DNA of 64,000 nucleotides. Source: an uncultured virus (IMG/VR IMGVR_UViG_3300045999_004337). Lineage: Duplodnaviria; Heunggongvirae; Uroviricota; Caudoviricetes. Numbering within the stretch: the first letter of the stretch is position 1; every line of letters begins with the position of its first letter. The notes under the pieces were generated by a model, which had not been told where the DNA came from, did no database searches, and saw nothing but the letters and a program-made list of their open reading frames with translations. A program made the position numbers and the translations under genes. Positions 28,499 to 36,036 of this stretch are shown here, piece by piece. The stretch lies in the IMG/VR virus record IMGVR_UViG_3300045999_004337; one strand, written 5' to 3'.

Positions 28499-29172
28499 AT
28501 CTCCACCACGACCTTCCTGTAGCCTTCCATGTCGGCTCGTTCCTTCACCTCGTACTTGCAGGAGTTCAGACCCTCGCTCTTCCAGTCGAGTTTCCGATCC
28601 CACATCTCCTTGACGCGGTCTATGTTCTTCCTGTAGTCCTGCTCGTCTATCTTCCTGTCGTGGTTGAGGGACTGAAAGAACCCGTTCTCAATCCTCGCTG
28701 CCTTCAGTCCCGCATAGTGGCAGCGGTAGAGCATGTCGTCGTCCTCGGCTCCCCATCCCCAGTACTCGTTGCTGTAGCCGTTCACCTGATCGAATGCCTT
28801 GCGCGGGAACAAGGTGACTCCACCGAAGTATCCCCCATAAGGCAGGGTGAAGTTGAACTGACTTGCCGCGCTTGCAAGGTGGGTCGGTTCATCCCTGTAG
28901 GAGTAGTCGGGACCGTTGTTGACCAGGTTCCTGAAGGGAATCATGTCCACATCGTGCATGACGAAGTAGTCGCAATCCTTGGATGCCTCCAGGAACCCGA
29001 TGTTGAGCAACTTGGCGCGGTTGAACGGCTTTCCGTGCGTCTGCTCCACCACAAGGATCTCATGGTCGATGCCGCTGTCGGCAAGGTACTGCCTGATGGC
29101 AGGAACGAACTCCTTCAGGTGCGCATCCCTGTCCCTGAAAGGAACGATGATGCACAACTTATGCCGTTCCAT
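28495..29172 (-). CDS. Beta-1,4-galactosyltransferase-like protein (GT7)
   Basis: [46 protein letters not shown]. Confidence 0.92.
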
Positions 29173-30187
29173 ACTTGAACTCCTTGGCAACTGCTTCCTC
29201 AAGCCGCATCATCACATCCTCGGTGAAGTACTTCTCTGGGTTCTCGTTGATGTTCTTCTCAAAGGCAGTCTTGCCATCGGGAAGTTCGATCCTTGTTGAG
29301 ACCTTCTTGAAGATGCCGTGGTTGATCGCGATGTCGGTCAGCCCGTAGTAGCGGTTCAGACCAGTCTCGTAGTTCAACTGCACATCGACCTGCTGGTTCT
29401 CCTTGGTGAGCCTAGACTTGTACAACTTGCAATGGATGATGCTGCCGATCACATCCCCGTCCGCGTTCTTCTCCTTCTTCTTGGAGAGGTAGACGATGGT
29501 GGATGCGGCATACTTCAGACCGCTTCCGCCACCCATCTCCTTGGTGGGGACATACGCACCCACGACATCGTAGGTGTGGTTGGTCATCACAAGGGGGATC
29601 CTTGCCTTGCCCAACTTCATTGTCAGGACGCGGAATGTAGCCTTGACCCCCTGCGCCCTAGTCATGTCGCGGACATTCTTGCCTTCGGCTGAGTCGTTGA
29701 CTTCCTTCTCGGTGGACAACATCCCTAGCGAGTCGAGGACGATCATCATCGGCTTCCTGTCGCTCTCGTCCATCTCAAGAACCTTGTCAACGATGTTCAC
29801 GCACTGCGTCTTGAACTCCTCAATGGTGGCAACGGGGAACACAGCCACCCTCTGCGAGTCCACTCCCCTTCCCTTGAACATGTCGGATGTCACCGCTTGC
29901 TCAGAGTCGAAGTAGAGTACCATTCCCTCGGGATTGTCCTTGAGGAACTGCGCGACGATCCCTAGGGTGAAGTAGGTCTTTCCCGTGGCAGACTCGCCCG
30001 CAAGGGCAATGATCTTGTTGTCTGCCACTCCTCCATAAAGGGATCCTGAAAGTAGCGCATTGAAAGCATAGGAACCAGTGTCCACGAATCCCGCGACATC
30101 GGCTCCGTCGATTCCATCCTCAACAACGCTGGCAAACTTGTTGCCAGACTCCTTCACGATCTGCTTCAGGAAGTTCATGTTGTTCAC
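29159..30187 (-). CDS. uvsX: RecA-like recombinase UvsX
   Basis: [31 protein letters not shown]. Confidence 0.96.
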
Positions 30188-30562: not shown

Positions 30563-31537
30563 TCATGCAAACAATCCGTCGAGGCTGCTCTTCTTCTCCT
30601 CGTTCCATCCGATCACGGCAAGGATCGTCCTGAGAGGCTCCACGAATGCCTTCACGAACTGCATGTCGCGGTCTATGTAGCCGTCGAGTCCGAACTCCAC
30701 GGGCATCCTTCCGACGAATGCGACCACCTTCTCTCCAAGCGGATTGGGTTCCTTGAGGTAGACGAACTTGATCTTGTCTCCCTCGCGGATCTCCTGATAC
30801 ATGGTGTTCAGGCGCATCTTGCGCAGATGCCAGTTGTAGACGAGCGATGCCTTGGTCGCGATTGGAGTCCCCTTGGAATAGATGCTGGAAGCATCCAAGT
30901 AGTCCTTCATGCCGTTGCAACTTCGGGGGAAAGCCACCTTGTTGGCAGGAAGCCCCGCAAACTCCTCGCGGAAGGTCTTCACGAACCGATGGATGTCCTC
31001 CTCGTCCTTGTCCATCACGATGGTTATGGCTGTTTTCAGGGCATTCCTGACGACCTCTGGAGTGGATGACCTGACCGTCTCTATGCCCGTGATCTTCAGG
31101 TCTGGCTTCGGCAGGTAGACATCCTCCTCGCCTATCCTGACATTGAGCATGTACCGCTTCTTCCCCGTCCATATCCCCTTGGATGCGATGCACTCCCGCT
31201 TCATCCTCATGTGGTTGGCGTAGGAGTTCATCGTCTCCGACAGACGCTCGTAGGACTTCCGTATGACATTCTGTATGGCTTCCTTGGACAACTTGTCTAG
31301 GAACAAGGCTATCTTGCGCTCGTCCTTGCAGCCGGGAAGGGTCTTCCCCACGACCTTCTCCATGTCTAGGTAGACGGAGTCGGTGTCGATTGCGATGACA
31401 TAGTCCTCTCCGTCCGTCCCGATTGCCTTGTTGATGAACCTGTTGATGTCGCGCTCGACCCATTGCACGGCAAGTTGCCCCGACAGAGTGATGGCTTCGG
31501 CAATCTCCTCGTCGTAGTAGCGGAAGTATTCGTTTCC
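30563..31537 (-). CDS. 43: DNA polymerase gp43, C-terminal segment (palm/thumb), no proper start
   Basis: GNEYFRYY...AEAITLSGQ, IDTDS, KKRY, ITGIETVRSSTP; homologous frame begins at GGA 31537. Confidence 0.92.
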   Translation of the reverse strand, partial: GNEYFRYYDEEIAEAITLSGQLAVQWVERDINRFINKAIGTDGEDYVIAIDTDSVYLDMEKVVGKTLPGCKDERKIALFLDKLSKEAIQNVIRKSYERLSETMNSYANHMRMKRECIASKGIWTGKKRYMLNVRIGEEDVYLPKPDLKITGIETVRSSTPEVVRNALKTAITIVMDKDEEDIHRFVKTFREEFAGLPANKVAFPRSCNGMKDYLDASSIYSKGTPIATKASLVYNWHLRKMRLNTMYQEIREGDKIKFVYLKEPNPLGEKVVAFVGRMPVEFGLDGYIDRDMQFVKAFVEPLRTILAVIGWNEEKKSSLDGLFA

Positions 31538-31656
31538 TAACCTACTGCGCCGTAAGCGGAGTTCAACTGGATCTTACGAACCAGTTGTCGATTGTGATAC
31601 AAAGATGCATCATCAATCAACCGCTTACGGAGCAGTAGCAAGTCCTCATTGCTCAT
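31537..31656 (-). CDS. 43: DNA polymerase gp43, middle segment with motif B
   Basis: MSNEDLLL...QLVRKIQLNSAYGAVG-stop; ATGA-coupled to the endonuclease stop (alternative ATG at 31674). Confidence 0.85.
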   Translation of the reverse strand: MSNEDLLLLRKRLIDDASLYHNRQLVRKIQLNSAYGAVG

Positions 31657-32351
31657 TTGCTCGTAATTCGACATGACCAACCTTTCAGTTTGCCTTTCTT
31701 TATGACCTTTCCCGAAACAGCAGATTTCCAAAGAGTAGTGAATGGTAATCCCTGTATCTTGCACCACTGATTCAGCCGATTTGTCTCAAAAGATGTTCCA
31801 TCCTCCTTTACTACCAGGTAACTTTGGTTGAGTGAGTCTAACATCTTATCTCTATGGATTGACCATATATCCCGAGATATCTGTTTCATGGCTTCCGAGT
31901 GCGATGGTCGTTTCTTCCCTCTGATGGCGGCTGTCGCCAGTTTTGCATTTTCTATGGCAACTCTAGCATATTTCTCTGGATTAGCGGCTCTAGTTTTATT
32001 ACCCGCTGCTACGCATTTAGCGAGACTGCTTGGGTTTCTCATTGGATTCCTGTCTCCAGAGTTATCAACATGATCCCACCCGCCCTTTCCACCAGGTCTC
32101 AGATTGTAGCAGAGAGGATCGGATGACCACAAGTCTCCAATCAAGATTCTTTCCCGTTCATACATCTCATGCGCAGTAGAGCATTCTTCTAGAATCTCTC
32201 GGCTAAAGGCATCAACACCATAAGCCTCAATGTCCCTATCCAACTCAACTCCACTACCGAGATAGGAATCGTTCAGGTTGTCCGTTCTATGTGCGCCTAT
32301 GTAATACCTAAATGTTTTCGTGTTGGTGGTCTTGTAGACGAGGTAATGCAT
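31653..32351 (-). mobile_element. Free-standing GIY-YIG (Seg-like) homing endonuclease inside gene 43
   Basis: LVYKTTN......YYIG.H, YLGSG, YNL.PGG; lower GC than flanks. Confidence 0.92.
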
Positions 32352-32382
32352 TTTCGGGTTCTCCCTTTCCGAAAATATCTAT
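32350..32382 (-). promoter_or_regulatory. Late-promoter motif plus hairpin enclosing the endonuclease RBS and start codon
   Basis: ATAGATA overlapping ATTTTCGG-aaAGGGAGaac-CCGAAAAT(G). Confidence 0.7.
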
Positions 32383-32399
32383 TACCAATCGCACTCAAA

Positions 32400-33884
32400 T
32401 CACATCAAACCTCGTTTTTTTAGTTCATTTTCTACATCACGAAGGCTAGCCTTGGTCTCAAGCATCAGCCTCTTGTACTCCTTGCGCTGCTTGTACATCT
32501 TCTCCATGAGTTCGGGAAGGAATCCCTGCTTGTCCTTGCGGTATGTCGTTCCGTTGGCAGCAAGGGAAAGGTTCTTGTGCCGTGCCTTTTCGATTTCCAC
32601 CATGTAGGTGTTTGACTGCTTCATCACGGACGATGCCGTGATCGATCTCCTGAGTCCATCGGAAGTCTTGGTGTCGGGACTCAGGTTGTAGTGGCAGATG
32701 AGCATCGGATAGAGGGCATCAAGGTCGAAGGACACCACCCATCTGTGCATTCCGACCTGAGGTGGCTTGACATATGCCCCCTTGAACGCTTTGTCCTTTC
32801 GGTTCCTCCGCTTCTGTGGGATCGCGATCCTCTTCTCGCTGAGGTGATGGTAGATGATCTGCTCCCATGTCCTGACCTGCGAGAAGACATCCTGCATGTT
32901 GACCTTGGCTGAATAGGCAAGGGCTACCGCTTGCTCAAGCAGCCGCTTCTTTGCCTCAAGTTTCTGCACAAGGACGGTGTCCCGTATGTTGTACTCCACG
33001 AACTTGGTGAAGTCGTTCCGATAGAACTCCGAGAAGTTGTCGTGCTCGGAGTGATCCAACTTGGTCTCCCCGAGTTCGATCTGCGCGATGTCTCCTAGTT
33101 TGTATGACTCCCGCGTGACGAATGTGAACTTTCGGTAGAGTTGATAGTAGTCGATGGTGTTGATGCCGACCATCTCGTAGGTGACGCTCTCCTTGCCGTG
33201 GAACTCGACCTTTCTCTTGCGCAACTTCCCCCAAGGGGAGAGTTTCCGCGCATACTGCTCCCCGAGGAGATTTCCGATCCTGTGGACGATGTACGGGATG
33301 TCGAAGAACTCGACATTCCACCCCGTCACGATGTCGATCCCAAGGCTCTGCCATGTCAGCAGGAAGTCACTCAGCATCTGCTCCTCGTTGTCGTAGAGGT
33401 TGACGAGGACATCGGGCGGCATCCTGGACTTGTCCACCTTGCCAAGGGCAAATGTGTACTTCTTGGAACCGCAGATGATGGTGATGACATTGATCCGCTC
33501 GTTTGCCGTGTCGATGTCGGGGAATCCTGCCTCGGACTCGGTCTCTATGTCGATGTAGGCGATGCGCAACTGGTTGAAGTCGTAGTCAACCTCTCCCTTG
33601 TACTCGTCGCCTATGAACTGATAGACATAGTCCGTGTTCCCGAAGATGGGGAACGAGGAGACATCCGAGTACTTCTCCATGAACTCGCGGGAGGAATCGA
33701 TGGAGTCGAACACCATAGGTTCGACGGGTCTGCCGTCGAGGGACTTCCACTCGCTCTTCCTCTTGCTGAGGATGAAGAGGGTGGGCTTGTACACATCCTC
33801 CTCGGCGAACGGCTTGCCGTTCTCGTAGCCGCGATGGAGTATCCTGTTGCCACGGATGGCGACATTGGTGTAGAACTTGGGCAT
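32400..33884 (-). CDS. 43: DNA polymerase gp43, N-terminal segment (3'-5' exonuclease, motif A)
   Basis: DIETE, GWNVEFFDIPY, YNIRD, SFDLDALYP, RKEYKRLM. Confidence 0.96.
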   Translation of the reverse strand: MPKFYTNVAIRGNRILHRGYENGKPFAEEDVYKPTLFILSKRKSEWKSLDGRPVEPMVFDSIDSSREFMEKYSDVSSFPIFGNTDYVYQFIGDEYKGEVDYDFNQLRIAYIDIETESEAGFPDIDTANERINVITIICGSKKYTFALGKVDKSRMPPDVLVNLYDNEEQMLSDFLLTWQSLGIDIVTGWNVEFFDIPYIVHRIGNLLGEQYARKLSPWGKLRKRKVEFHGKESVTYEMVGINTIDYYQLYRKFTFVTRESYKLGDIAQIELGETKLDHSEHDNFSEFYRNDFTKFVEYNIRDTVLVQKLEAKKRLLEQAVALAYSAKVNMQDVFSQVRTWEQIIYHHLSEKRIAIPQKRRNRKDKAFKGAYVKPPQVGMHRWVVSFDLDALYPMLICHYNLSPDTKTSDGLRRSITASSVMKQSNTYMVEIEKARHKNLSLAANGTTYRKDKQGFLPELMEKMYKQRKEYKRLMLETKASLRDVENELKKRGLM

Positions 33885-33891
33885 TTGTCTT

Positions 33892-36036
33892 TCATTCCAT
33901 GAGGTCGTCTAGATCGCTTGGAACCTCCTCAGCGATCCTTGCCTCAGCCAACTTGATGTACTCAGGGTTCAGTTCGCAACCCACGAAGTCCCGTCCGTTC
34001 TCCATTGCCACGACAGCAGTCGTACCCGATCCCGTGAACGGATCCAGGACGGTGCATGGAACCACGGAGGCATCCTTGCACTTGCAGGTTGGCTTCCACC
34101 CCTTGGGTGTCCTCTCCGCTGCCTTGAGGGAGGGAACCGTCCCCTTGGCAGTCCGCGTCTGCCTTCCCGAGATCCGTTCGGGTGGGACGGAGTCGTTCCT
34201 GCCGAAATCCCCACCCCAATGCTTCCCGTGCTTCTCGTAGTCGCTCATGCCGACATTGACATCCATCTCCCAAGGCGCACCGCACTTGGAGCAGCAGCCA
34301 TGTGCGCTGGTTCCCGCAAGGACGCATGGAAGGATGAGGTTCTTGGGATAGACCGCGAAGTGCGCTCCCTTGTAACCCTTGGTATTGACCGTCCACACGG
34401 AACGCTTGTTCTTCCTTCCATCGGAAGCCCACACCCTGTCAGGCTCAAGGGCAGGATCACGCGATCCCTTTTCCTCGGGCTGAGTCCTGTTCTTGTTTCC
34501 TGGCGCATGAGGTGCGCCTACGGCTTGCTCCTTGATTGCCTCATGGTCATAGTAGTAGTGCGACTTCTTGGTGAGCATGAAGATGTATTCATGCGCTCGG
34601 GTGCATCGATCCATGACCGACTCGGGCATGGGATTGGGCTTGGAGTTGTGCGTCAATATACCAGATGCCAATGCAAAGAGATGTGGTTCGTCCTCCACAC
34701 CGAGATCGTAGACTTCCCTACAGCGGGCTTTGTTGATCTTCACGATCTCATTTCGACTCTTTTCGTTGCAATGACCGCTTCTCTCCTTGCGTAGTTCTCC
34801 ACGGAAAGAAGGAAACGACTTTTCTCCACAACTGGCGTGGCTGAGATTCAGCGTGAGGGTATACCCCAACCTAGCACATGCAGTTCTGATGTTTTGCTCA
34901 AGCCTGTAGTTTCTACAAAACCCAAGTCTCCACCGATTGCCCGTCTGGCATCCATCGCCAGAAAGATACCCATCCATCATTCGTTCCAAGAATCTGTTCG
35001 AGTATCTCCACACCACGGGACTGAAACCCTTGTCGTATGCGGTGGTTCCAACGATCATCTCATCCAATATTGCGTTGAGCACCTTACCATAGACGCGGAT
35101 GGCTTGGTTGTTTCCGTCAACCGAGATGGTAGCAGTTCCTCCAAACTTCTTCGCTATCCTCTGAATCTCCGACCATCGGTGGTTTTCCTTTGAGTGACCA
35201 GATATCTGAATGGTGTCTCCGCTACGGGAGCCTTCTGCGAGATAGAGTCCAGCAAACCACGCCGCGTCCTCGTCTATGAAGCAATCTCTCGGATTTTCGG
35301 GTGGTGGTAGTGTACATGAGAGAAGAGTATCACCGATTACCAGTTCACTTGCGTCCTTCAAGCCGTCACTAGTCGGAAACTTGTGTGTGGGTGTGCATGA
35401 GATGCGTTCCCCCGAACGAAGGACTATTTCAAGTTCATCCCCCCTCCTCTTACTTTTGCTCATGCCAAGAAGATTCGTCCAACTGGTTCCATTCCAAAGT
35501 TGTACCGTAGATGGATCAAGGCGGTAGAGATCGCGAATCATCATCACGCACTCTCCGCTATTCTTGGTGCGAACATAAACACAGGTTCCACCACTAAGAC
35601 ACCAGATGCATTCCTGACGCAGCCACCACCCGTCTGCCTGTAGCGCAAAGGCTACACGCCAAGGGATGCCGATCAGATCCTTGTGCTTCAGACCCTTCTG
35701 CTTCTTGCGGTTTCCAGGAATGGTGGTTGGCATGTCCCTCTGTCCCCCGATTGTCTGTGGAGGAGGAGGGACATTGTACTGAGCCATGTAGGAGTCGCCA
35801 AGGTTCAGCCACAGAGTGCCATCAGGACGAAGAGCACGGCGAACTTCACGAAACACATCAACCATTGCATCGACATACTGCTGCACTTCGTTCTCGCATC
35901 CGATCTCACTCTGACCTCCGTTGTACGAACGCAAGCCGAAGTAGGGGGGTGAGGTGATGCATGTGTGGACGGAGTTGTCCGCGATCTGCTTGAGTCCCTC
36001 GCGGCAATCGCCTTCGATGATCCTGTATTTGTTCAC
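33892..36036 (-). CDS. N4/N6 DNA methyltransferase (beta order) with intein
   Basis: TSPPY near the N-terminus; LDPFTGSGTT near the C-terminus; HFAVYP. Confidence 0.93.
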   Translation of the reverse strand: MNKYRIIEGDCREGLKQIADNSVHTCITSPPYFGLRSYNGGQSEIGCENEVQQYVDAMVDVFREVRRALRPDGTLWLNLGDSYMAQYNVPPPPQTIGGQRDMPTTIPGNRKKQKGLKHKDLIGIPWRVAFALQADGWWLRQECIWCLSGGTCVYVRTKNSGECVMMIRDLYRLDPSTVQLWNGTSWTNLLGMSKSKRRGDELEIVLRSGERISCTPTHKFPTSDGLKDASELVIGDTLLSCTLPPPENPRDCFIDEDAAWFAGLYLAEGSRSGDTIQISGHSKENHRWSEIQRIAKKFGGTATISVDGNNQAIRVYGKVLNAILDEMIVGTTAYDKGFSPVVWRYSNRFLERMMDGYLSGDGCQTGNRWRLGFCRNYRLEQNIRTACARLGYTLTLNLSHASCGEKSFPSFRGELRKERSGHCNEKSRNEIVKINKARCREVYDLGVEDEPHLFALASGILTHNSKPNPMPESVMDRCTRAHEYIFMLTKKSHYYYDHEAIKEQAVGAPHAPGNKNRTQPEEKGSRDPALEPDRVWASDGRKNKRSVWTVNTKGYKGAHFAVYPKNLILPCVLAGTSAHGCCSKCGAPWEMDVNVGMSDYEKHGKHWGGDFGRNDSVPPERISGRQTRTAKGTVPSLKAAERTPKGWKPTCKCKDASVVPCTVLDPFTGSGTTAVVAMENGRDFVGCELNPEYIKLAEARIAEEVPSDLDDLME
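34645..35601 (-). mobile_element. Intein (319 aa) with LAGLIDADG endonuclease
   Basis: W|CLSGGT, CTPTHKF, FAGLYLAEG, DGYLSGDG, VYDL.V, LTHN|S. Confidence 0.93.

What the first reader, a model, noticed from the sequence alone, without database searches (positions are those of the whole stretch)
30563..33884. DNA polymerase gene in three pieces, with a stop/frameshift junction immediately after motif B
Seen: the N-segment stops at the fingers (..KKRGLM*), a GIY-YIG gene follows, then a 39-45 aa ORF carries KIQLNSAYGAVG. Its last codons read GCA GTA GGT TAG GAAAC, while the homologous continuation GGA AAC GAA TAC TTC (GNEYF) is in another frame. The junction is an imperfect 5-nt duplication, GTAGG-TTAGG; removing either copy restores AVGN or ALGN. 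Established: two-piece gp43 split at the fingers occurs in some T4 relatives, and T4 gene 60 uses a Gly-codon/UAG take-off with Gly landing. Inference: an active enzyme needs a short ribosomal hop (GGU to GGA over UAG) or a -1 shift (giving VGLGN). Otherwise this is a repair scar at the endonuclease target, or a sequence error.
Basis: partly seen in the sequence, partly recalled or inferred. Interest (0 to 1): 0.85.

Follow-up and report, generated by a model that had tools for sequence, protein, structure and literature searches.

The report
Five-base ribosome hop in phage polymerase
A lake-water T4-like phage carries a selfish endonuclease cassette in its DNA polymerase gene, and the cassette leaves a 5-base interruption that ribosomes most likely skip with the help of a conserved RNA helix.

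Summary
On the minus strand the family-B polymerase lies in three stretches. These are an N piece (33884-32400), a Seg-like GIY-YIG endonuclease gene (32351-31653), and a 45-codon ORF (31674-31537). That ORF ends GCA GTA GGT TAG, and the rest of the polymerase (31537-30563) continues in another frame with no start codon.

The same GGT-TA-GGN junction occurs in 27 viral contigs from 27 datasets, about 10 polymerase lineages only 44-52% identical. The 73 uninterrupted relatives examined lack it. Close relatives in other lake samples lack the endonuclease, the extra codons and the 5 bases together, so these form one mobile cassette.

One lineage has an unsplit polymerase with no endonuclease but still has the insert. 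Aeromonas phage 25 has a homologous endonuclease and a group I intron at the same codon boundary.

All 15 distinct carrier sequences share a covarying 16-bp RNA helix. Its 3' strand ends on the first base of the take-off codon. Non-carriers lack it.

Best reading: a programmed +5 hop of peptidyl-tRNA-Gly from GGU over UAG to GGN, driven by helix zipping. It works like the T4 mobA/gene 60 cassette but is unrelated to it. No translation was measured, so the hop itself is inferred.

The parts
32400..33884 (-). polB N piece (43A-like): exonuclease domain and first part of the polymerase domain, ending KKRGLM then TGA
   Evidence: ORF. Pfam DNA_pol_B_exo1 E 1.7e-24 and DNA_pol_B E 3.6e-14.
31653..32351 (-). 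Free-standing Seg-like GIY-YIG homing endonuclease gene, 232 aa, GC 44.8% against 53.9% for the window
   Evidence: About 34% identical to the GIY-YIG gene inside the split polB of Aeromonas phages 25 and phiAS4.
31537..31674 (-). 43B ORF1: own ATG (31674), 45 codons (N-terminal extension plus fingers helix and motif B, KIQLNSAYGAVG), then TAG
   Evidence: GC 45.9%. This stretch is replaced by unlike sequence in the endonuclease-less alleles of runs X15 and X22.
31535..31542 (-). Recoding site: take-off GGT 31542-31540, TAG 31539-31537, landing GGA 31537-31535. The extra 5 nt can be written GGTTA (31542-31538) or TTAGG (31540-31536).
   Evidence: The X22 contig lacks 5 nt at 31538-31544.
31622..31638 (-). 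5' strand of the closing helix (alignment A2 columns 25-41), inside the Leu-Leu-Leu-Arg-Lys codons of the N-terminal extension
31542..31558 (-). 3' strand of the closing helix (A2 columns 105-121), covering the Ala-Tyr-Gly-Ala-Val codons and the first G of the take-off codon
   Evidence: 16 pairs, 97.5% of cells paired, 7 pairs with compensatory changes.
31564..31587 (-). Inner hairpin, 7 bp (the two Gln-Leu codon pairs), 10-nt loop
   Evidence: 96% paired, 2 pairs with compensatory changes. Weaker evidence on its own (39 of 500 shuffles reach the score).
30563..31537 (-). 43B remainder: palm (DTDS) and thumb, 324 codons, in the other frame, no start codon before 31468
   Evidence: Differences between carriers fall almost only on third codon positions of this frame, starting 9 nt after the insert.
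31519..32448 (-). Approximate extent of the mobile cassette: 3' tail of 43A, endonuclease, ORF1 and the insert
   Evidence: Joint 31519->32448 with 144 other letters in the X15 contig, which otherwise differs at 3 of 957 positions in the C piece.

Best explanation
The polymerase gene was invaded by a mobile cassette. The cassette consists of a Seg-like GIY-YIG homing endonuclease gene, a cassette-borne copy of the roughly 135-nt fingers/motif-B coding stretch with its own start codon, and a 5-nt insert (GGTTA placed before the native Gly codon).

Shown:
- The cassette splits polB into a 43A-like and a 43B-like gene.
- It is present or absent as one unit in near-identical phages.
- It recurs in about 10 divergent polB lineages.
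- It always reads GGT TAG GN.
- It always carries a covarying RNA helix that ends on the first base of the take-off codon.

Inferred, step by step:
1. The ribosome translating 43B stops with peptidyl-tRNA-Gly on GGU in the P site and UAG in the A site.
2. The lower half of the 5' helix has already re-formed behind the ribosome.
3. Zipping of its last 7 pairs is predicted to release 4-13 kcal/mol. It can only happen if the mRNA slides about 5 nt through the ribosome.
4. That slide strips the take-off codon from the tRNA.
5. The tRNA re-pairs with GGN 5 nt downstream and decoding resumes at AAC. The product reads ..AYGAVG-NEYF.., the canonical uninterrupted polymerase sequence.

Also inferred: the insert exists because it breaks the endonuclease's target in the motif-B DNA. 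This would be self-immunity, as the 50-nt insert is for MobA in T4 gene 60 and as an intron at the same codon boundary would be in Aeromonas phage 25.
For: Real and recurrent.
- The junction is identical in 3 IMG/VR contigs and in a bridging contig of run X12.
- 27 of 28 pattern hits in viral contigs are polB junctions, from 27 datasets.
- When the take-off codon and the next four bases were left free, 8 of 8 hits and 19 of 19 hits read GGT TAG G.

Selected, not decayed.
- Carriers are 44-52% identical in polB and 39-47% in the endonuclease, yet all pieces stay open.
- The motif N-x-[YFH]-F-R follows the landing codon in every lineage.
- Differences between L094 and L032 downstream of the insert fall almost only on third positions of the new frame, beginning 9 nt after the insert.

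Cassette behaviour.
- 7 of 7 split loci among the 80 relatives carry the insert, and 0 of 73 others do. Of those 73, 61 show 500 or more codons open upstream in one frame; the other 12 are cut by contig ends.
- Carriers sit at 3 separate places in the C-piece tree.
- L094 and L032 are 100% identical from -762 to +16 around the junction, but 50-87% and 87-96% identical in the flanks.
- Contigs in X15 and X22 are 95-99.7% identical in the C piece, lack the endonuclease, and have in-frame replacements of 144 and 93 nt. The X22 contig lacks exactly 5 nt at the junction.
- Cassette GC is 45-46% against 54-55% in the flanks.

Recoding is unavoidable in one lineage. L108/L113 have a single 545-codon polB frame, no endonuclease, and the same insert and helix.

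Same site as a known element. Phage 25 has 43A, a homologous GIY-YIG gene, a 43B exon 1 ending ..YGAL, a 347-nt group I intron, and an exon 2 starting GNNFF.

The helix.
- 16 pairs, 97.5% of cells paired, 7 pairs with compensatory changes.
- 0 of 500 shuffles reach the covariation score. Slid controls pair at 24-40%, against 97%.
- Carriers fold with z -3.2 to -7.8. Ten non-carriers gave z +0.5 to -3.3.
- L085 (endonuclease, split, no insert) gave z -0.7, and phage 25 exon 1 gave z +1.2.
- None of the 12 control folds shows the closing helix. Four of the ten non-carriers show a shorter local pairing of the Arg-Lys codons with the Ala-Tyr-Gly codons.
- Predicted gain from zipping the last 8 nt is -4.3 to -12.8 kcal/mol.

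Direction of the shift.
- Only the +5 position offers G-G re-pairing in every lineage.
- Upstream refolding duplexes stimulate forward and attenuate -1 shifts at a stop-codon site in 70S ribosomes (PMC6321510, passages).
- Synthetic stop-hops are cited in PMC5009743, whose reference list carries a title naming +5 and +6 shifts (passages).
Against: - No protein, ribosome-profiling or RNA data exist for any carrier. No RNA run was listed, so the hop, its efficiency and the product sequence are all inferred.
- Synthetic stop-hops are inefficient by my recollection, and a replicative polymerase is essential.
- In the window and two other lineages the landing codon (GGA) does not match the take-off codon (GGU) at the wobble base.
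- The helix geometry argument is my own reasoning by analogy. It says the lower half sits where an SD duplex would, and the upper half can form only after sliding.
- Manning and Atkins report that the 5' stem-loop of gene 60 is not conserved among its homologues (section 19 read).
- The carriers share the cassette by descent, so the 15 sequences are not independent. The shuffle control overstates significance for related sequences.
- L085 shows that a homologous endonuclease can sit in a split polB without any insert. The immunity role is therefore not obligatory.
Confidence: 0.68

Rival explanations
1. Recoding occurs, but as a -1 shift (product ..AVG-LG-NEYF..) or a +2 shift (..AVG-G-NEYF..), not as a hop.
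For: Both restore the frame. The insert lies at what I recall to be the fingers/palm boundary, where one or two extra residues might be tolerated. The free third base of GGN fits A-site decoding as well as re-pairing.
Against: There is no slippery heptamer. The -1 codon NGG has all four bases at position 1 across lineages, and the +2 codon UUA cannot pair with tRNA-Gly. No conserved downstream structure was predicted. An upstream duplex attenuates -1 shifting in 70S systems (PMC6321510).
Confidence: 0.1
2. The 5 nt are removed or skipped at the RNA level, by polymerase realignment between the two GG or by processing and religation, so the mRNA is collinear.
For: The helix ends exactly at the insert. 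The window has a TAGG..TAGG near-repeat. No RNA data contradict it (one search listed no RNA run).
Against: The near-repeat is not conserved; lineage B has TTGG/TAGG. A nascent-RNA helix cannot form while its 3' strand is still in the RNA-DNA hybrid (reasoning). The 5' strand offers no splint across the would-be ligation junction (checked by eye). No homopolymer run is present. I know of no precedent.
Confidence: 0.05
3. The 43B gene is broken and not rescued. The phage tolerates it, uses another polymerase, or the C part is made from an internal start.
For: A stop and a frame change are what a pseudogene looks like. A GTG lies at 31468. Only part of each genome is held (G001 is 23% complete).
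Against: All frames stay open across 44-52% divergence. The 23 codons between the landing codon and the first start are conserved polB sequence. Substitutions there fall on third positions. GGT TAG G and a covarying helix are conserved. There is no second polB in the 64-kb window. The unsplit lineage L113 would lose its whole palm and thumb.
Confidence: 0.08
4. Sequencing or assembly error.
For: A 5-nt indel in one metagenome contig could be an artefact.
Against: The same junction occurs in 27 contigs from 27 datasets and about 10 lineages, and in Logan contigs of further runs.
Confidence: 0.01

Closest known systems
T4 mobA / gene 60 bypass cassette (described in PMC5009743 passages, and in Manning & Atkins bioRxiv 10.1101/2022.08.31.505936, abstract and sections 12 and 19)
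   Same: A free-standing homing endonuclease splits an essential replication gene. The downstream piece starts with about 45-48 codons and then a non-coding insert. The take-off codon is Gly, a UAG follows it directly, and the landing codon is Gly. Endonuclease and insert travel as one element. Some lineages have lost the endonuclease but kept the insert. In T4 the insert is reported to block self-cleavage.
   Different: The host gene is polB, not topoisomerase. The endonuclease is GIY-YIG, not the HNH-type MobA. The shift is 5 nt (a 2-nt gap) instead of 50 nt, so there is no room for a take-off stem-loop or an SD inside the gap. The conserved signal is a long 5' helix ending on the take-off codon, whereas the 5' stem-loop of gene 60 is reported as not conserved. 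There is no sequence homology.
Split gene 43 (43A/43B) of Aeromonas phage 25 with its seg-like GIY-YIG gene (PMC2988022 passages; record DQ529280)
   Same: polB is split in the fingers region. The endonuclease is homologous (about 34% identity, E 1e-20). 43B starts with a short exon ending at motif B. There is an interruption between the Leu/Val/Ile codon and the Gly codon. The phage 25 pieces are reported to co-purify and be active.
   Different: Phage 25 has a 347-nt self-splicing group I intron there (Rfam RF00028, 64 bits). The window has 5 nt and no intron (no Rfam hit in L081 or L030). Phage 25 exon 1 has no stable structure (z +1.2).
Synthetic stop-hops in E. coli (Weiss et al. 1987, seen only as cited in PMC5009743)
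   Same: Peptidyl-tRNA leaves a codon next to a stop and re-pairs with a matched codon a few bases downstream. The cited title lists +5 and +6 events.
   Different: Those were engineered constructs. The review states that no natural in-frame stop-hop is known. Here the event would be natural, out of frame, conserved, and equipped with a dedicated helix.
RF2 (prfB) +1 frameshift and upstream-duplex stimulation (PMC6321510)
   Same: [quoted passage not shown]
   Different: RF2 shifts +1 onto an overlapping codon and uses an SD:anti-SD duplex. Here the duplex is within the mRNA and the shift is +5 onto a non-overlapping codon.

Membership tests
Endonuclease-linked translational bypass cassette (T4 mobA/gene 60 type) | A free-standing homing endonuclease gene splits an essential gene, and a non-coding insert lies shortly downstream in the 3' piece | tested here: met
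   43A, GIY-YIG gene, a 45-48 codon ORF, the insert, then the rest of 43B.
Endonuclease-linked translational bypass cassette (T4 mobA/gene 60 type) | Gly take-off codon followed directly by a stop, and a Gly landing codon | tested here: met
   GGT TAG GN in 27 of 27 polB junctions. The landing codon is GGA, GGT or GGC.
Endonuclease-linked translational bypass cassette (T4 mobA/gene 60 type) | Homology to MobA and to the gene 60 bypass sequence, inserted in the topoisomerase gene | tested here: not met
   The endonuclease is GIY-YIG/Seg-like and the host gene is polB. The gap is 2 nt, not 47-50 nt.
Endonuclease-linked translational bypass cassette (T4 mobA/gene 60 type) | Endonuclease and insert move together as one element | tested here: met
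   Exceptions recorded: L107, L105, L119 and L113 have lost the endonuclease but keep the insert. L085 has the endonuclease but no insert.
Endonuclease-linked translational bypass cassette (T4 mobA/gene 60 type) | The insert protects the carrier DNA from its own endonuclease | not testable with these tools
   Indirect only: an intron sits at the same codon boundary in phage 25.
Endonuclease-linked translational bypass cassette (T4 mobA/gene 60 type) | Ribosomes demonstrably bypass the insert | not testable with these tools
   No RNA or protein data.
Split gp43 (43A/43B) of T4-related phages | polB encoded as two genes split in the fingers region, with a seg-like GIY-YIG gene between them | tested here: met
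-1 programmed frameshift site | Slippery X XXY YYZ heptamer and a 3' stimulatory structure | tested here: not met
   The sequence is NUN GGU UAG. RNAalifold predicts no pairs 3' of the site.
Group I intron | Match to the catalytic core (Rfam RF00028) | tested here: not met
   No hit in L081 (the window region) or L030. Phage 25 scores 64.2 bits.

The most novel reading that the evidence does not exclude
This would be a second, independently evolved family of homing-endonuclease-linked translational bypass elements, and the first natural 'stop-hop'. A mobile GIY-YIG cassette in T4-like phage polB genes carries a minimal 5-nt coding interruption (GGU UAG GGN) together with its own cassette-encoded 5' 'zipper' helix. 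Completion of the helix would pull the mRNA 5 nt through the ribosome. If so, it offers a far simpler, comparative-data-rich model than gene 60 for how mRNA pairing at the ribosome exit drives forward sliding.
Probability: 0.6. Interest if true: 0.92.

Novelty: new variant of a known kind. Interest (0 to 1): 0.9.

Why it matters
Programmed bypassing in bacteria and phages has rested on essentially one family, T4 gene 60 and its homologues. Its mechanism is intricate, and its 5' structure is reported as not conserved.

This is an unrelated element with the same logic: endonuclease, split gene, Gly-stop-Gly. It is reduced to 5 nt and carries one strongly covarying helix placed exactly at the take-off codon.

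Three consequences follow if the reading holds.
- It makes testable the idea that mRNA pairing behind the ribosome can drive forward slippage.
- It shows that selfish endonuclease cassettes have more than once relied on recoding to hide their target site inside an essential, highly conserved coding sequence.
- It warns annotators that polB in three pieces in uncultured T4-like phages may be a working gene.

Tried and rejected
- megablast of the 3.6-kb region against 50,697 phage records gave no match.
- blastn found only cyanophage polB. In all 40 listed rows (of 167 matching records) the record span is 5 nt shorter than the query span. No listed cultured phage therefore has the insert.
- The genome contigs pattern scan gave 25 hits, none of them polB (0 of 25). 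About 140 chance hits were expected by my estimate.
- The metagenome-contig scan gave 3 hits. All three were compared and belong to the L030 lineage.
- No tRNA gene lies in the window.
- No RNA holder was listed among the sequencing runs, so expression and RNA-level removal could not be examined.
- The window's own assembly is not held. The nearest record, G001, is 41.6 kb and 23% complete.
- Two look-ups of earlier findings returned nothing.
- A TAG reassignment was considered and dropped, because reading through TAG stays in the wrong frame.
- The inner hairpin alone is not convincing (39 of 500 shuffles).
- Literature searches for polB or gp43 bypassing found no description of this element. 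Subscription-only papers are not covered; Petrov et al. 2010 J Mol Biol was seen only as cited.
- No structure prediction or complex prediction was run.
Full report
**What is in the window.**

The gene lies on the minus strand.
- ORF 33884-32400 encodes 494 aa of a family-B polymerase, ending KKRGLM then TGA. Pfam gives DNA_pol_B_exo1 at E 1.7e-24 and DNA_pol_B at E 3.6e-14.
- ORF 32351-31653 encodes a 232-aa protein. It has a weak SegE_GIY-YIG Pfam match (E 1.2e-4, below the cutoff). It has tblastn relatives in 852 phage records, many annotated Seg-like or GIY-YIG homing endonuclease.
- An ATG at 31674 then opens 45 codons ending ..LVRKIQLNSAYGAVG, followed by TAG (31539-31537).
- The polymerase continues as GGA AAC GAA TAC TTC (GNEYF..) from 31537 down to the stop at 30563, one base out of frame. 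There is no ATG, GTG or TTG in that frame before 31468.
- The C part holds the DTDS palm motif.
- The window has no second polB and no tRNA gene.

**The 5 nt are real.**

- Three IMG/VR contigs are identical to the window over 8 kb, junction included.
- Of the 24 sequencing runs listed, all labelled lake water, freshwater or simply metagenome, 12 hold at least half of the sampled words.
- Contigs of four runs were laid on the region. A contig of X12 bridges the junction without a difference (31407-31594). One of X11 covers 31510-32816 without a difference, though only 26 nt lie on the lower side of the insert.

**The junction recurs in distant relatives.**

- 80 polB loci were fetched with the C piece. 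These were the best 80 of 381 confirmed relatives.
- 73 read ..GGN AAY GAR.. without interruption. Seven have the interruption: three copies of the window phage and L030-L033.
- L030 is only 48-52% identical in polB and 45% in the endonuclease. It has the same layout and reads ATT GGT TAG GT AAC.
- A pattern leaving the take-off codon and the four following bases free found only GGT TAG G. This held with two different flanks: 8 of 8 and 19 of 19.
- A pattern that frees the downstream sequence found 28 places in viral contigs. 27 are polB junctions from 27 datasets and one is a chance hit.
- They fall into about ten lineages by downstream sequence: NEYFRYYD, NQYFRYYS, NVYFRWYQ, NEFFRYYS, NEHFRHFD, NEYFRFFD, NAYFRFYN, NVYFRFYS and others.
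- The codon before the take-off codon varies (GTA, ATT, ATA, CTT, GTG, CTC, TTG). The third base of the landing codon varies (A, T, C). GGT TAG G does not vary.
- The same pattern gave 25 hits in bacterial and archaeal genomes, none in a polB.
- The cultured cyanophages listed lack the 5 nt.

**It is a mobile cassette.**

*Association with the split*
- All 73 uninterrupted loci encode one continuous polB where the contig allows it to be seen. 61 have 500 or more codons open upstream, and 12 are cut by contig ends.
- In a tree of 57 distinct C pieces, the three carriers included sit in three places. The well-supported branches force three changes. The window is a long branch there, so its exact place is unsure.

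*Shared core with divergent flanks*
- L094 and L032 are identical from -762 to +16 around the junction, covering most of the endonuclease gene, ORF1 and the insert. Their polB flanks are 50-87% identical on the N side and 87-96% on the C side. This is the pattern left by homing with co-conversion.

*Empty-site alleles in other samples*
- A contig in run X15 differs from the window at 3 of 957 positions in the C piece and 70 of 1437 in the N piece. It replaces 31519-32448 with 144 letters.
- A contig in run X22 (25 differences in 524 nt) replaces 31575-32448 with 93 letters. It also lacks 1+2+2 = 5 nt at 31538-31544.
- Both replacements keep one reading frame by my arithmetic on the coordinates.
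- A loose end in run X11 reads, after reverse complement, ..GCT GTA GGA AAC GAA.., the uninterrupted form.
- These empty-site alleles lack the endonuclease and about 18 extra codons, and where the junction is visible (X22, X11) also the 5 nt.

*Composition*
- The endonuclease and ORF1 have 45-46% GC, against 54-55% in the flanks.

*How the insert can be written*
- In both lineages it can be written as GGTTA placed between the Val/Ile codon and the native Gly codon. The native third base is kept in the landing codon.

**States of the element.**

| State | Loci |
|---|---|
| 43A, endonuclease, 43B with insert | window, L030 group, L102/120/122, L109/112/125, L114/126 |
| Endonuclease deleted, split and insert kept | L107 |
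| 43B with insert, other genes upstream, endonuclease present | L100/111/124, L110/116 |
| 43B with insert, other genes upstream; only a C-terminal trace of the endonuclease (L119) or none detected in the 699 nt held upstream (L105) | L105, L119 |
| Single unsplit polB (545 codons open before the junction), no endonuclease, same insert | L108/L113 |
| Homologous endonuclease (44%) and split 43B, but no insert | L085 |

The unsplit lineage matters most. There the palm and thumb can be made only by changing frame at this site.

L085 shows that the insert is not obligatory for carrying the endonuclease.

**Same site as an intron in a cultured phage.**

- The endonuclease is about 34% identical to the GIY-YIG gene in the split gene 43 of Aeromonas phages 25 and phiAS4.
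- In phage 25 (DQ529280), 43B is annotated as split by a group IA2 intron.
- Exon 1 ends ..KILINSLYGAL at TTA. A 347-nt intervening sequence follows. Exon 2 starts GGT AAC AAC (GNNFF).
- Rfam finds the intron core at 64.2 bits. It finds none in the window region or in L030.
- The 5-nt insert and the intron therefore occupy the same codon boundary.
- The review of Edgell et al. (PMC2988022, passages) reports that the phage 25 pieces co-purify and have polymerase activity.

**A conserved RNA helix at the take-off codon.**

*What was found*
- RNAalifold was run on 14 distinct carrier sequences. It predicted a 7-bp hairpin and a long-range helix joining the Leu-Arg-Lys codons of the N-terminal extension to the Ala-Tyr-Gly codons of motif B.
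- Extending the window showed that a single mismatch is followed by seven more pairs. These reach through the Ala and Val/Ile/Leu codons to the first G of GGT. The partners in the upstream Leu codons change in step with the variable Val/Ile/Leu codon.

*Covariation counts on 15 distinct sequences*
- The 16-pair helix is paired in 97.5% of cells.
- Seven pairs show changes on both sides. For example, pair 28-118 is UA 8, CG 3, GC 2, AU 1.
- No shuffle of 500 reaches the covariation score.
- Sliding the partner by 1-3 columns drops pairing to 24-40%.
- The sequences share descent, so the shuffle figure overstates independence. The slid controls and the number of pair types do not depend on that.

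*Single-sequence folds*

| Group | Result |
|---|---|
| Eight carriers, 110 nt | -28 to -43 kcal/mol, z -3.2 to -7.0, closing helix in all eight |
| Window, 130 nt | -57.7 kcal/mol, z -7.8 |
| Ten uninterrupted relatives | z +0.5 to -3.3, closing helix absent; four show a shorter local pairing of the Arg-Lys codons with the Ala-Tyr-Gly codons |
| L085 (endonuclease, no insert) | z -0.7 |
| Phage 25 exon 1 | z +1.2 |
| Unsplit carrier L108 | helix kept, z -6.0 to -7.0 |

The helix therefore goes with the insert, not with the split or the endonuclease.

**How it most likely works (inferred).**

1. With GGU in the P site, UAG is in the A site and is decoded slowly.
2. The lower nine or ten pairs end 7 nt upstream of the take-off codon. 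A Shine-Dalgarno duplex can sit at that distance.
3. The upper seven pairs involve the E-site codon and the first base of the P-site codon. They cannot form unless the mRNA moves.
4. Their predicted worth is -4.3 to -12.8 kcal/mol.
5. A forward slide of 5 nt lets them form and removes the take-off codon from the tRNA. It also puts GGN in the P site, the only nearby triplet that offers G-G pairing in every lineage.
6. Decoding resumes at AAY and gives the canonical ..G-N-x-[YF]-F-R.. sequence.

Three sources fit this picture.
- Upstream refolding hairpins next to the E site stimulate +1 and attenuate -1 shifting at a stop-codon site in 70S ribosomes (PMC6321510, passages).
- Synthetic stop-hops are cited in the Atkins review, whose reference list carries a title naming +5 and +6 shifts (PMC5009743, passages).
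- The title of a gene 60 preprint proposes that pairing of mRNA leaving the ribosome drives forward bypassing (10.1101/2024.12.09.627546, title and abstract only).

The protective role of the insert against the endonuclease rests on two analogies. One is MobA and gene 60 (Manning and Atkins, section 12). The other is the intron at the same site in phage 25.

**What argues against it.**

- Nothing here measures translation.
- By recollection, short synthetic hops are inefficient.
- GGU to GGA is a wobble mismatch in three lineages.
- The 5' stem-loop of gene 60 is reported as not conserved.
- L085 lacks the insert.
- A -1 or +2 shift, RNA-level removal, or a tolerated broken gene are the rivals. 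Each is set out above with its odds.

**Comparison and novelty.**

- The element works like the mobA/gene 60 cassette, but it is not a member of that family. The endonuclease family, the host gene, the gap length and the signals all differ.
- It is a member of the split-gp43 arrangement known from Aeromonas phages. There the interruption at this site is an intron.
- Six literature searches found no description of a bypass or frameshift in polB of T4-like phages.
- The held library lacks most subscription journals. Petrov et al. 2010 was seen only as a citation.

Noticed in passing
window 33892-36036 (-): The gene directly upstream of polB is a 714-aa N6/N4 DNA methyltransferase. It is interrupted by an intein with a LAGLIDADG-like domain. 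Pfam gives N6_N4_Mtase at E 1.3e-37, Intein_splicing at E 7e-9, and LAGLIDADG_3 weakly. This is a second selfish element next to the polB cassette.
   Followed up: partly
A2 columns 13-20; window about 31650-31643 (-): A purine-rich Shine-Dalgarno-like motif sits a few bases 5' of the helix's 5' strand. It reads GGAGG in most carriers, GAGGA in the window and AAGGA in L108. A17, G18 and G19 are invariant in 15 of 15 sequences, including a synonymous Glu third position. When the helix is closed, the motif would lie opposite the take-off codon near the ribosome's anti-SD. Its function was not tested.
   Followed up: no
L094 (IMGVR_UViG_3300008261_002279), N piece: The polB N piece of this carrier matches the window's in two blocks in different frames (query 32-281 and 342-492). 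About 60 residues are missing between them. This may be a deletion, a second interruption or a chimeric assembly.
   Followed up: no
L100/L111/L124, L110/L116, L105, L119: In these carriers the 3 kb upstream of the endonuclease or 43B holds unrelated small genes instead of the polB N piece. In L110 one of them looks like a sugar-nucleotide dehydratase; this reading is by eye and was not searched. The two polymerase genes appear to have been separated in the genome.
   Followed up: partly
L085 (IMGVR_UViG_3300025849_000555): This locus has a homologous endonuclease (44% identity). A small ORF with a Cys-x2-Cys pattern lies between it and a split 43B that has no 5-nt insert and no helix. It is a natural control for the immunity hypothesis.
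   Followed up: partly
window 29159-30187 (-): A UvsX/RecA-like recombinase gene follows polB after a 108-aa ORF. The neighbouring polB loci of cyanophages S-B68 and S-CAM1 carry a RecA-like or DNA repair gene at the corresponding place.
   Followed up: no
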